From NCBI GenBank assembly GCA_024720975.1, contig JANJXX010000001.1, positions 223,408-287,407 of the forward strand: a DNA stretch of 64,000 nucleotides, written 5' to 3'. Origin of the DNA: Thermoproteota archaeon. Its GTDB lineage: Archaea > Asgardarchaeota > Njordarchaeia > Njordarchaeales > Panguiarchaeaceae. Within the stretch, counting starts at the first letter, position 1; each line of letters begins with the position of its first letter. Below are positions 11,958 to 14,403 of this stretch, in pieces. The notes beneath the pieces were generated by a model. The model was not told where the DNA came from and made no database searches. It was given only the letters and a program-made list of their open reading frames with translations. Made by a program: the position numbers and the translations under genes.

Positions 11958-12653
11958 TTAGGGCTTCCATCTACCAATGAACATTATATGATCTTTAGCG
12001 TATGGGTCAAGGCGTATTTCCTCTTCTATCCTGAAACCGTTTGACTCGAGAATCTTCTTTTGTTCCTCAAATATTTTTTCGGGAGGACGCGCTACATCTA
12101 TACTTCTAGCTTTTATAGCAATAAAGCCATAGCCGTTGGTTCTAACAAACATTCTACAGTTTCTTATGAATATCTCGCTTTGATCTGGTTGTGCTATATC
12201 AGCATAAATACCATCGACGGATTCTCCTATAATATAGGCATACTCGTATGGTTTTCTAGCATCCTTAAGTAGGGGAATGATGTTTTTTCTCTTCTGAGCC
12301 ACAGCAACAAGGTCCCGCATTGGCCTTGGAGCAAATTCGATACCATATATTATCCCTTTTGGACCTATGATATCTGAGATATGTGATGACGTCGTTCCTG
12401 ATGCTATACCTAAATAGAGTATCCTGTCTCCCTCGGATATTCTAATGTCCTTCAAACCATTGATTATTGCTGCAGCCAGCTTGGATCTATAAGGTACCCA
12501 CTCTCGATACTCAACTCCTTGAAAGTTCATTAGTCTCTCTCCATAAACGCTAACGCCAGCTACGAGATTCCTAGTGGCTAATCTCTCTGTTCCCAGTTCA
12601 TCAGTTACAACAAAAACTCCCTTGAATATCTCCTTTACACTTACTATTTTCAT
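11958..12653 (-). CDS. flpA: fibrillarin (rRNA 2'-O-methyltransferase)
   Basis: VYGER, YREWVPYRSKLAAAI, LYLGIASGTTSSHISDI, DIAQPDQ, KARSID; start moved to ATG after GGTG. Confidence 0.97.
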   Translation of the reverse strand: MKIVSVKEIFKGVFVVTDELGTERLATRNLVAGVSVYGERLMNFQGVEYREWVPYRSKLAAAIINGLKDIRISEGDRILYLGIASGTTSSHISDIIGPKGIIYGIEFAPRPMRDLVAVAQKRKNIIPLLKDARKPYEYAYIIGESVDGIYADIAQPDQSEIFIRNCRMFVRTNGYGFIAIKARSIDVARPPEKIFEEQKKILESNGFRIEEEIRLDPYAKDHIMFIGRWKP

Positions 12654-12715
12654 TTCAAGACACCATCTAAAGTATATCACCGACAATGCAATTATTAATA
12701 GAGAACAAACTTGAG

Positions 12716-13186
12716 TCAAACACTAAAATATCTCTCAATAGCGCCTCTGGTCCAGTTCTTTATTGCCAATCGTCCCTCTGCCAGAATACTTCCGATATTC
12801 TCGAGCTTTTGGATGATTGCTGTAATGATGCTAGGATTTGCACTTGGATCGCTATGAAGTATAAAAAGCGTCATGTCATAACCGCTCTCAGGTTCATCTG
12901 CTACGAAACGATATTTGGCCGAAAGCTGCCGTACAATTTCAGCTGCTAGTGCCCTGTTGATGGGATCTTCCCCAATCGCTATAAGTTTTATGTTGATTTG
13001 CATGGAATTCTTCGTTACTTTAACCACACCATCTTCGTACTCTAGTTCTCTGTATCCAGCTTTGTCGCATTCAAGGCAAAATAAACATGCTAGGTCAACC
13101 TTTTTGGGACAATCAGAGACCTTTCTAAGGGATCTAATTAAACTTAATATGTTCGGCAAATCTTCTGTTATTCGCACAATATACAC
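12716..13186 (-). CDS. ARPC4 (Arp2/3 complex subunit 4)-like protein
   Basis: NSMQINI..., PESGYDMTLFI and C-terminal helix II..LE.I...LAE.RL.IK...R...E.YF match ARPC4 NSVRVSI, PVEGYDISFLI, VI.FMEEID.EISEMKLSVN.RAR...EEFL. Confidence 0.65.
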   Translation of the reverse strand: MYIVRITEDLPNILSLIRSLRKVSDCPKKVDLACLFCLECDKAGYRELEYEDGVVKVTKNSMQINIKLIAIGEDPINRALAAEIVRQLSAKYRFVADEPESGYDMTLFILHSDPSANPSIITAIIQKLENIGSILAEGRLAIKNWTRGAIERYFSV

Positions 13187-13260
13187 CCCCAGCTAAGGCA
13201 ATAAATAACGTGCACATATATGTTAATACAAATTATGATAGTGATTATATTCGTGATATT

Positions 13261-14403
13261 ATGCTTCGATTATCTCCTAAAGCATACAAAAAGAGCTGCG
13301 CAATTTGCAAGAATGAGAAACTGTTAAGCTCGGTGTTGTCGGTCTGTCGAGATTGCATCATAAATAGGTTTGAGGACGCTAAGGATTACATAATTAATGC
13401 ACACAGAAAAGTCAGAGCGCGCTACCTTCTTCCCTACCCTGCACCTTCTGATGGTAATATCATATGCTCATTATGTTCTAACAACTGCAAAATGAAAAAT
13501 GGTGACATAAGTTTCTGCGGTTTAAGATGGGTTGAAGAAAATAAACTCAGATCTTACGTATCACCGAACCAGGCTCTTGCTTACGTCTATTTAGATCCGC
13601 ATATAACAAATTGCTGTGCAGCCTGGTTCTGCCCGGCTGGAACTGGATTAGGCTATCCAGAGTATTCTGTCACAAAGGGTCCTGAGTATGGATATAGTAA
13701 CTTGGCTGTGTTCTTTTATGGCTGCAATTTTAATTGTCTCTTTTGCCAGAACTGGGAACATAAAGATGTTTCGGGAGCCCCTGTAGTACAAACAGAGGAT
13801 CTAGTTCAAGCAGTTATTAAAAATGACAAGATCACTTGTATCTGTTACTTTGGTGGGAGTCCAGAGCCTCATGCTCCATTTTTCTTGAAAGTTAATGAGG
13901 AATTGCTTGAGAGAAAAGGCAAGAGAATAGTTAGGATATGCTATGAATGGAATGGTGCAGGAAATTCCACGATCGTAAGAAAAGCTGCAGAGTCAGCATT
14001 GCTGACGGGCGGAGTAATAAAGTTTGACTTGAAGGCTCCGCCGGGTTCACCTTTATCAATGGCATTGTCTGGCGTTGACAACAAGAGAGTTTATGAAAAT
14101 TTTGAGATGGTTTATAGAGAGTTTTGGTCTGAGGCAAAAATTCCAATTTTGACAGCAACTACTCTCCTGGTTCCTGGATACATTATGCCAGAGGATGTGG
14201 AAGAAATTGCACAATTCATCGCAAGTCTAAATCCTGAAATTCCATACTCTATTTTAGTATTTCATCCGGATGGTGCCATGACTGACTTACCAATTACACC
14301 AAGACAAATCGCCGAGGAGTCAGAAAGACGCGCGCGAAAGTATCTAAAGCACGTAAATGTTGGAAATAAGTTCCTTCTGACAATGGCACCGGAGAGAATT
14401 TAG
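13261..14403 (+). CDS. radical SAM protein (PFL-activase / AmmeMemoRadiSam-like)
   Basis: GCNFNCLFCQN CxxxCxxC, GGSPEP, KFDLKA, N-terminal Cys clusters. Confidence 0.85.
   Translation: MLRLSPKAYKKSCAICKNEKLLSSVLSVCRDCIINRFEDAKDYIINAHRKVRARYLLPYPAPSDGNIICSLCSNNCKMKNGDISFCGLRWVEENKLRSYVSPNQALAYVYLDPHITNCCAAWFCPAGTGLGYPEYSVTKGPEYGYSNLAVFFYGCNFNCLFCQNWEHKDVSGAPVVQTEDLVQAVIKNDKITCICYFGGSPEPHAPFFLKVNEELLERKGKRIVRICYEWNGAGNSTIVRKAAESALLTGGVIKFDLKAPPGSPLSMALSGVDNKRVYENFEMVYREFWSEAKIPILTATTLLVPGYIMPEDVEEIAQFIASLNPEIPYSILVFHPDGAMTDLPITPRQIAEESERRARKYLKHVNVGNKFLLTMAPERI

What the first reader, a model, noticed from the sequence alone, without database searches (positions are those of the whole stretch)
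12716..13186. ARPC4-like (Arp2/3 p20) protein with a Cys cluster, upstream of fibrillarin
The C-terminal two thirds align with ARPC4 (NS.....I, D.I...L, P..GYD(M/I)(T/S), long terminal helix ending E.YF). The N-terminus instead has C-x7-C-x2-C-x2-C, a possible metal site absent from eukaryotic ARPC4. This is a eukaryotic signature protein implying an actin-regulatory or other ancestral role. The co-orientation with fibrillarin is unexplained.
Basis: partly seen in the sequence, partly recalled or inferred. Interest (0 to 1): 0.75.

Follow-up and report, generated by a model that had tools for sequence, protein, structure and literature searches.

The report
Asgard ARPC4-like protein, four-cysteine site
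This hot-spring Asgard archaeon (Njordarchaeota type) encodes a genuine full-length relative of ARPC4, a core subunit of the eukaryotic actin-branching Arp2/3 complex. It carries a conserved four-cysteine metal site and is predicted to pair with itself, but the family is already catalogued in Asgard archaea and its function is untested.

Summary
ORF 12716-13186(-), more likely starting at GTG 13177 (153 aa), is a real, conserved gene.

- **Homology:** alone it scores just under Pfam's ARPC4 cut-off (18.7 vs 22.2 bits). A profile of 26 Asgard homologues hits solved ARPC4 chains at E=4e-14.
- **Fold:** the AlphaFold model (pLDDT 91.9) overlays ARPC4 end to end (Z 14.5, TM up to 0.74), with ARPC2 next.
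- **Cysteines:** the four are the most conserved positions of the family. The motif occurs in 25 of 28 Asgard-type representatives and 1 of 125 eukaryote-type hits.
- **Self-pairing:** a symmetric homodimer through the ARPC2/ARPC4-type helices is predicted (score 0.78, best control 0.00). This may partly reflect the model's memory of solved Arp2/3 structures.
- **Partners:** the genome has one actin, but no other Arp2/3 subunit was found.
- **Fibrillarin:** the adjacency is real. It is gene order specific to one order (9 of 11 related genomes keep Nop5 or fibrillarin within 3 kb; none of 12 loci from other Asgard families). The apparent 4-nt overlap is an ORF-calling artefact.

Asgard ARPC4 homologues have been listed in the literature since at least 2020. 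This scan has already met the family, with its cysteine cluster and predicted self-pairing, in at least eight other genomes. This is a new member of a known kind.

The parts
12716..13177 (-). ARPC4-like gene (153 aa plus stop; the longest ORF reaches GTG 13186, 156 aa, and residue numbers in this report use the 156-aa form)
   Evidence: ORF list. Homologues in 73 of 201 Asgard genomes. Profile vs PDB ARPC4 E=4e-14. Model pLDDT 91.9, Z 14.5 to ARPC4. Start inferred from relatives and P0001.
13067..13111 (-). Four-cysteine cluster C26-x7-C34-x2-C37-x2-C40, a probable metal site in the loop after the N-terminal helix
   Evidence: Invariant in A1. The four lowest-entropy full columns of A2. Motif in 25 of 28 Asgard-type and 1 of 125 eukaryote-type proteins. 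Metal binding itself is inferred.
12719..13042 (-). Core that matches eukaryotic ARPC4 by sequence (residues 49-156: three strands, helix 75-91, strand 105-110, C-terminal helices 118-154)
   Evidence: HMMER alignments. Pfam stretch 51-155. Secondary structure of the model.
12914..12964 (-). Helix 75-91, first half of the predicted homodimer interface
   Evidence: complex prediction interface list.
12719..12829 (-). C-terminal helices 120-156, second half of the predicted symmetric interface, including W145 (W in 38 of 45 homologues)
12654..12715 (-). 62-nt spacer between the ARPC4-like stop and the fibrillarin ATG. It holds an A/T-rich TATA-like run (12691-12700) and GGTG (12661-12664) before the ATG.
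   Evidence: Sequence read directly. Promoter and ribosome-binding roles are inferred, not shown.
11958..12653 (-). Fibrillarin gene (neighbour, not shown to be functionally linked). True start is ATG 12653, not TTG 12719.
   Evidence: Pfam PF01269 E=1.8e-95, match from residue 28 of the long ORF. MKIV start conserved in relatives.
5644..6876 (+). Nop5 (Nop56/58) gene, fibrillarin's usual operon partner, here about 5 kb away on the other strand
   Evidence: the genome search with PF01798: G000:C11:229495-230199, 211.8 bits.

Best explanation
The gene encodes a member of the Asgard ARPC4-like family, a true full-length homologue of the eukaryotic Arp2/3 subunit ARPC4.

Shown by computation:
- homology to ARPC4 and the ARPC4 fold over the whole length;
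- strict conservation of four cysteines in the loop after the N-terminal helix;
- single copy in this genome;
- no other Arp2/3 subunit detected in this genome.

Inferred:
- The four cysteines hold a structural metal, most likely zinc. This would brace the N-terminal loop that in eukaryotic ARPC4 is an unbraced segment.
- The protein forms a two-fold symmetric homodimer through helix 75-91 and the long C-terminal helices. This is the same helix pairing that joins ARPC4 to its paralogue ARPC2 in Arp2/3, so it would act as a dimeric adaptor rather than as part of a seven-subunit complex.
- Its most likely ligand is the organism's actin filament, bound on its side as the ARPC2/ARPC4 pair binds the mother filament. 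I put this last step at only about 35-40%, because nothing but homology supports it.

The position upstream of fibrillarin is inherited gene order within one order (Njordarchaeales-type), not a functional coupling.
For: - **Homology:** profile of 26 Asgard homologues vs ARPC4 chains, E=4e-14 to 3.7e-13. 25 of 26 members hit PF05856, best 9.6e-11. The same profile retrieves over 200 eukaryote-type ARPC4 proteins among 239 hits in 1.84 billion proteins, all aligned from about position 49 onward.
- **Fold:** pLDDT 91.9, pTM 0.85. Foldseek's top nine hits are ARPC4 chains with TM 0.66-0.74. VIA-align gives Z 13.6-14.5, rmsd 3.0-3.7 A, 150-153 residues aligned, model 1-156 on chain 3-167, with ARPC2 next at Z 5.3-7.5.
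- **Cysteines:** invariant or near invariant and the most conserved columns, and specific to the Asgard form.
- **Homodimer:** score 0.78 against a best control of 0.00. That mark was reached by 20 of 30 proteins solved as pairs of one chain and 1 of 23 solved as single chains. The three runs agree in at least 97% of contacts, and partner pLDDT is at least 86. The interface is symmetric (141 with 141, 134 with 153) and contains the conserved W145.
- **Lone subunit:** one actin (374 bits) is present, and no match was found to the ARPC2, ARPC3 or ARPC5 models in G000.
- **Gene order:** Nop5 and/or fibrillarin lie within 3 kb in 9 of 11 genomes of the order, in at least five arrangements, together with eIF2-beta, YjeF and RpoB. 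They are absent from all 12 loci of seven other Asgard families.
Against: - No experiment exists for any member of the family in the literature I could search.
- The homodimer pass may come from the model's memory of solved ARPC2-ARPC4 structures. My own alignment and a riding zinc also depart from the tool's calibration.
- Interface positions are only slightly, and not significantly, more conserved than other positions of the same helices (2.42 vs 2.73 bits, p=0.06).
- The metal is not identified. C(P)...C-x2-C-x2-C also resembles a [4Fe-4S] motif.
- No actin gene lies near the gene in 22 loci.
- The family was not found in three large Asgard families (0/43, 2/41 marginal, 0/19). Asgard phyla are reported to have actin throughout (PMC7444086); I did not survey actin in those genomes myself. 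If they do, a core actin role looks less likely.
- The protein evolves fast: 38-58% identity within the genus, against 61-83% for its neighbours.
- G000 is 81% complete, and the control genomes hold no Arp2/3 subunits, so 'no other subunit' is weak.
Confidence: 0.6

Rival explanations
1. Same fold and dimer, but the ligand is not actin. The ARPC4-like module is a general dimeric adaptor that eukaryotes later recruited into Arp2/3, and in Asgard archaea it serves other partners.
For: There is no actin linkage in 22 loci. Distribution within the phylum is patchy. Other lineages fuse the module to unrelated domains: an ATC-hydrolase/V4R-like domain plus a Cys-rich tail in P0010, and long C-terminal extensions in P0014 and P0027. 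Apart from ARPC4 and ARPC2, the nearest folds are small dimeric chaperone or adaptor proteins such as CesT, SicP and YbjN, at Z 3-4.
Against: The only known function of the fold's clear homologues is in Arp2/3. The weak chaperone matches are at noise level by the tool's own note. Searches for stand-alone copies of the fused domains in G000 found nothing, so no alternative partner is named.
Confidence: 0.3
2. The four cysteines ligate an iron-sulfur cluster rather than zinc, making the protein redox- or oxygen-sensitive.
For: In this protein and most close relatives the motif reads C-P ... C-x2-C-x2-C. That matches the ferredoxin-type three-plus-one cysteine pattern (established knowledge of [4Fe-4S] motifs). 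The organism comes from hot-spring metagenomes.
Against: The spacing to the last cysteine varies from x2 to x5 among homologues, and the proline after the first cysteine is often replaced. A structural zinc site tolerates this better than a cubane site. The fold is predicted with high confidence without any cofactor (pLDDT about 89-90 over residues 21-40).
Confidence: 0.15
3. In this order the protein works with the box C/D methylation machinery (Nop5-fibrillarin), and the adjacency reflects co-regulation or a physical link.
For: The gene stays within 3 kb of Nop5 and/or fibrillarin in 9 of 11 genomes of the order despite at least five rearrangements. It is immediately adjacent to and co-oriented with fibrillarin in five of them. 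No terminator-like site lies between the two genes here.
Against: The linkage is confined to one order; 12 loci from seven other Asgard families lack it. Other unrelated genes (eIF2-beta, YjeF/Nnr, orf4983, RpoB) stay in the same block equally well. The 62-nt spacer has a TATA-like run and GGTG before fibrillarin's ATG, which suggests a separate promoter. Related genomes are not independent samples.
Confidence: 0.06

Closest known systems
Eukaryotic ARPC4 (p20-Arc, Pfam PF05856; chain F of 1K8K, 1TYQ, 3DWL, 6W17, 9M64)
   Same: Same fold over the whole length (Z 13.6-14.5, 150-153 residues aligned). Significant sequence homology over residues 49-156, including the NS, PE.GY(D) and terminal-helix motifs. 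Similar size (153-156 vs about 168 aa).
   Different: It carries a four-cysteine cluster in the N-terminal loop that eukaryotic ARPC4 lacks. No Arp2, Arp3, ARPC2, ARPC3 or ARPC5 was detected in the genome. It is predicted to pair with itself rather than with ARPC2. A conserved Trp (W145) sits in the pairing helix where the eukaryotic sequences shown have Arg or Ala.
Asgard ARPC4-like eukaryotic signature protein family (listed as 'Arp2/3 complex subunit 4' in PMC7522288 and PMC7444086, and as a catalogue-matched cluster in bioRxiv 10.64898/2026.10.28.762692)
   Same: It is a member. Full-length matches to homologues in 73 of 201 Asgard genomes, with the same cysteine cluster and length.
   Different: This is the plain single-domain form. 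Odinarchaeum-type relatives are fused to an ATC-hydrolase/V4R-like domain and a Cys-rich tail, and others carry 200-270 aa C-terminal extensions. Placement next to fibrillarin is peculiar to this order.
Eukaryotic ARPC2 (p34-Arc, PF04045), paralogue and partner of ARPC4
   Same: Second-best structural match (Z 5.3-7.5). The predicted self-interface uses the helices that pair ARPC4 with ARPC2 (and knowledge of the Arp2/3 structure).
   Different: ARPC2 has two tandem copies of the domain and is about twice as long. Sequence similarity is not significant (E about 1). No ARPC2 match was found in G000.

Membership tests
ARPC4 superfamily (PF05856) | Statistically significant sequence homology to ARPC4 over the alpha/beta core and C-terminal helix | tested here: met
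   Profile of 26 homologues vs PDB ARPC4 chains gives E=4e-14, and 25 of 26 members hit PF05856. The single sequence alone is below Pfam's gathering score (18.7 vs 22.2 bits, E=0.0013).
ARPC4 superfamily (PF05856) | ARPC4 fold over the full length | tested here: met
   Foldseek TM 0.66-0.74, prob 1.00. VIA Z 13.6-14.5, model 1-156 on chain 3-167. The model is confident (pLDDT 91.9).
Arp2/3 complex subunit in the strict sense | Co-occurrence with Arp2, Arp3 and ARPC1, 2, 3, 5 in one genome | tested here: not met
   PF00022 finds one actin only. PF04045, PF04062 and PF04699 find nothing in G000. Caveats: the genome is 81% complete, the controls hold no positive genome, and ARPC1 (WD40) was not searched.
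Arp2/3 complex subunit in the strict sense | Heterodimer with ARPC2 through the long C-terminal helices | tested here: inconclusive
   No ARPC2 was found. A symmetric homodimer through the equivalent helices is predicted instead (0.78 vs control 0.00), but this is a prediction only.
Arp2/3 complex subunit in the strict sense | Binding to actin filaments or a role in nucleating branches | not testable with these tools
No actin gene lies near the gene in 22 loci.
Asgard ARPC4-like family | Full-length similarity to other Asgard members, single domain of about 150-165 aa | tested here: met
   E 2.6e-59 to 1e-7 across 23 of 41 relatives. 73 of 201 genomes match with the profile. About 30 full-length representatives at 50% clustering.
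Asgard ARPC4-like family | Four conserved cysteines after the N-terminal helix | tested here: met
   C26, C34, C37 and C40 are invariant in A1. The motif is present in 25 of 28 representatives.
Cys4 structural zinc site | Four cysteine ligands close in space that bind one Zn | not testable with these tools
   Conservation is shown. A weak, non-significant resemblance to UBR-box zinc fingers (E 1.3-6) counts for nothing.
Box C/D RNP accessory protein | Conserved genomic or physical association with Nop5-fibrillarin across lineages | tested here: not met
   Linked in 9 of 11 genomes of one order only, and in none of 12 loci from seven other Asgard families.

The most novel reading that the evidence does not exclude
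The Asgard ARPC4-like protein is the surviving single-gene, homodimeric ancestor of the ARPC2/ARPC4 heterodimer at the core of Arp2/3. It already binds the side of Asgard actin filaments, and its four-cysteine site acts as a metal- or redox-dependent switch lost in eukaryotes. That would place a filament-anchoring step of branched actin nucleation before eukaryogenesis.
Probability: 0.15. Interest if true: 0.75.

Novelty: new member of a known kind. Interest (0 to 1): 0.33.

Why it matters
ARPC4 is one of the few Arp2/3 parts with a prokaryotic homologue, so what the lone Asgard form does bears on how branched actin networks arose. This copy adds a clean single-domain example from a thermophilic Njordarchaeota-type genome. 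It has a confident model, a testable four-cysteine metal site and a testable homodimer. It also shows that the family is patchy within the phylum. It does not by itself answer the functional question, and the family and its main features were already known or already noted in this scan.

Tried and rejected
- **Family and atlas look-ups.** NCBIfam has no family for the protein. The ESM Atlas feature search gave no usable hit.
- **Naming organisms.** Lineages other than the Njordarchaeota-named P0004 could therefore not be named.
- **Partner search through fused domains.** I searched G000 for stand-alone copies of domains fused to the module elsewhere (P0014:190-361, P0010:1-160, P0027:300-435). 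Nothing was found with these queries.
- **Other actin regulators.** Pfam models for profilin, gelsolin, ARPC2, ARPC3 and ARPC5 found nothing in G000. The control genomes were also empty, so this does not show absence.
- **Expression.** No RNA holder is listed for this stretch, so co-transcription with fibrillarin could not be examined. The laid runs are DNA contigs only.
- **Promoter and terminator scan.** The scan uses bacterial sigma-70 consensus and is not informative for an archaeon. It reported no terminator-like site.
- **Interface conservation.** The test was not significant (p=0.06).
- **Conserved neighbours.** All-against-all comparison of neighbouring ORFs found no neighbour shared across Asgard families apart from the ARPC4-like gene itself.
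- **Literature.** Searches for a characterised archaeal ARPC4 found only listings, no experiments. The library lacks most subscription journals.
- **Phylogeny.** I considered an Asgard-versus-eukaryote tree and dropped it. About 110 alignable positions and no usable outgroup would not give a direction.

Full report
**What is there.** The window is G000:C11:223408-287407 of a 1.36-Mb, 81%-complete assembly. A protein 45% identical to the target is named by NCBI as coming from a Candidatus Njordarchaeota archaeon (P0004), and it comes from a genome of the same genus (L003/G002). Near-identical DNA occurs in hot-spring metagenomes of several studies.

The minus-strand ORF 12716-13186 encodes 156 aa from GTG 13186. 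Relatives begin at the equivalent of the second GTG (13177), which is preceded by GGGGGTG, and the database entry P0001 has 153 aa. The gene is therefore most likely 12716-13177. Residue numbers below use the 156-aa form.

**Is it ARPC4-like?** The single sequence gives a borderline signal:
- Pfam PF05856: E=0.0013, 18.7 bits, below the 22.2-bit cut-off.

The family settles the question:
- A profile of 26 homologues from the phylum (A1) hits ARPC4 chains 3dwl_F, 9dlx_F and 1k8k_F at E=4e-14 to 3.7e-13. This covers profile positions 49-156 against chain residues 57-166. ARPC2 is far behind at E of about 1.
- 25 of the 26 members hit PF05856, the best at 9.6e-11.
- Against 1.84 billion representatives the profile finds 239 proteins. 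About 30 match over the full length (Asgard type). The rest match only from position 49 onward and are eukaryote-type ARPC4.

The AlphaFold model is confident (pLDDT 91.9, pTM 0.85). Foldseek's nine best PDB hits are all ARPC4 chains (TM 0.66-0.74), followed by ARPC2. VIA-align gives Z 13.6-14.5, rmsd 3.0-3.7 A and 150-153 aligned residues, covering model 1-156 on chain 3-167. ARPC2 follows at Z 5.3-7.5, and everything else scores 4.1 or lower. The whole protein therefore has the ARPC4 fold, not only its C-terminal two thirds.

**The cysteine cluster.** C26, C34, C37 and C40 are invariant in A1. In the 45-sequence set A2 they are the four most conserved full columns, ahead of the NS motif. A loose pattern (C-x6-12-C-x2-C-x2-6-C) is found in 25 of 28 Asgard-type representatives and in 1 of 125 eukaryote-type hits. 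That single case looks like a chance match in an odd N-terminus.

The cysteines lie in the loop and short helix (34-37) between the N-terminal helix and the first strand. They are outside the predicted dimer interface. A structural metal site is the natural reading.

I favour zinc because the spacing to the fourth cysteine varies from x2 to x5 between lineages. C-P...C-x2-C-x2-C also recalls a [4Fe-4S] motif, so I keep that as a rival. No tool here could test metal binding.

**Self-pairing.** Two copies (with A2 as alignment and zinc riding along) gave a score of 0.78 in the median run, against 0.00 for the best of three controls.
- The mark was reached in the tool's calibration by 20 of 30 proteins solved as pairs of one chain and by 1 of 23 solved as single chains.
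- The three runs agree in at least 97% of contacts, and partner pLDDT is at least 86.
- The interface is two-fold symmetric, built from helix 75-91 and the C-terminal helices 120-156 lying antiparallel (141 with 141, 134 with 153).
- It includes W145, which is Trp in 38 of 45 homologues.

This is the helix pairing that joins ARPC4 to ARPC2 in solved Arp2/3 structures, so the pass may be partly from memory. My alignment and the riding ligand also depart from the calibration. Interface positions are only marginally more conserved than the rest of the same helices (p=0.06). I treat the dimer as likely, not shown.

**Genomic setting of the actin system.** G000 has one clear actin (374 bits to PF00022, C19:74295-75410). 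No match was found to ARPC2, ARPC3, ARPC5, profilin or gelsolin models. These blanks are weak because the genome is incomplete and the controls were empty.

No actin gene lies within about 4 kb of the ARPC4-like gene in any of 22 loci examined. Apart from the gene itself, no neighbour is shared across Asgard families.

With the A2 profile the family is found in 73 of 201 sampled genomes of the phylum, usually as a single copy. It is present in roughly 14-15 of 27 families. It was not found in three large ones (0/43, 2/41 with marginal E of 1e-4, and 0/19), some represented by genomes 98-100% complete.

The protein is the fastest-evolving gene in its block: 38-58% identity within the genus, against 61-83% for its neighbours.

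**The fibrillarin question.** The neighbour is fibrillarin (PF01269, E=1.8e-95). Its longest ORF overlaps the ARPC4-like stop by 4 nt. Relatives all begin at a conserved MKIV, which puts the start at ATG 12653 and leaves a 62-nt spacer. The spacer holds an A/T-rich TATA-like run (12691-12700) and GGTG 8-11 nt before the ATG. A separate promoter is therefore plausible, though this is inferred. Contigs from two other studies bridge the junction, so it is not an assembly artefact.

Across the 11 genomes of the order that have the gene, 9 keep Nop5 and/or fibrillarin within 3 kb, in at least five arrangements:
- ARPC4-like then fibrillarin;
- Nop5, a gap, ARPC4-like, then fibrillarin;
- ARPC4-like, fibrillarin, orf4983, then Nop5;
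- ARPC4-like, a gap, Nop5, then fibrillarin;
- Nop5, fibrillarin, then ARPC4-like;
- and one arrangement on opposite strands.

The same block also retains eIF2-beta, YjeF/Nnr, orf4983 and RpoB. None of 12 loci from seven other Asgard families has fibrillarin or Nop5 nearby. The simplest reading is a locally shuffled but inherited block in one order. I give a functional link to box C/D RNPs about 6%.

In G000 itself Nop5 sits about 5 kb away on the other strand (window 5644-6876).

**What is known.** Asgard homologues of 'Arp2/3 complex subunit 4' are listed in PMC7522288 and PMC7444086. The latter calls it a distant homologue in some Heimdallarchaeota. ARPC4 is also among the catalogue-matched clusters in bioRxiv 10.64898/2026.10.28.762692. 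I found no paper that tests the protein or mentions its cysteine cluster, but the library lacks most subscription journals.

Earlier follow-ups in this scan reached the same reading on other genomes: Odinarchaeum-type fusions, Atabeyarchaeia, Jordarchaeales and a 'probable zinc-bound homodimer'. I re-derived each point here independently.

**Verdict.** This is a real gene and a true ARPC4 homologue with a conserved four-cysteine site and a likely homodimeric state. It is a lone subunit with no demonstrated tie to actin or to fibrillarin. It is a new member of a known kind. Interest is moderate to low for this particular copy. The open question, which only experiments can settle, is what the lone Asgard form binds.

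Noticed in passing
window 5644-6876 (+) and 11958-12653 (-): Nop5 and fibrillarin, which form an adjacent co-oriented pair in relatives of family f3 (L030, L031, L034, L035), are separated here by about 5 kb and lie on opposite strands. Within the genus the pair has been broken or reordered in every genome looked at.
   Followed up: partly
window 12654-12719 (-): The longest fibrillarin ORF carries 22 extra N-terminal codons from a TTG. Relatives show the real start is the ATG at 12653 (MKIV...), so the apparent 4-nt gene overlap is an ORF-calling artefact.
   Followed up: yes
L011-L013 (G025, G014, G035) about 3500-4950; protein P0010: In a family of small (1.3-1.4 Mb) Asgard genomes the ARPC4-like module sits inside a 383-394 aa open frame. 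It lies between an ATC-hydrolase/V4R-like domain (Pfam E=3.1e-6) and a C-terminal CPYC-containing tail, with a fifth cysteine in the cluster. Earlier scan notes describe this as the Odinarchaeum-type fusion.
   Followed up: partly
L020, L021 (G034, G024); proteins P0014, P0027: Other Asgard families carry the module at the N-terminus of 361-435 aa proteins. These have a low-complexity linker and a conserved helical C-terminal domain with no Pfam match. No stand-alone copy of that domain was found in G000.
   Followed up: partly
phylum survey: With the 45-sequence profile the family is not found in three large Asgard families (0/43, 2/41 marginal, 0/19), although many of those genomes are over 95% complete. 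Two genomes of family f22 (G069, G102) have two copies.
   Followed up: no
window 13210-14403 (+): The divergent neighbour is a 397-aa radical SAM protein. It has a Cys-rich N-terminal extension and only weak similarity to AmmeMemoRadiSam and glycyl-radical activases, all far below their cut-offs. It keeps this position in G003 only. Its real start may be the ATG at 13261.
   Followed up: no
window 12743, 12823, 12851: Among hot-spring metagenome contigs the gene shows two synonymous differences and one replacement (T122A). The replacement is present in all four runs laid, so the window's allele is the minority one.
   Followed up: partly
window 12716-13186 versus its neighbours: The ARPC4-like protein is the fastest-evolving gene of its block: 38-58% identity within the genus, against 76-83% for fibrillarin and 61-72% for Nop5, YjeF and eIF2-beta.
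   Followed up: yes
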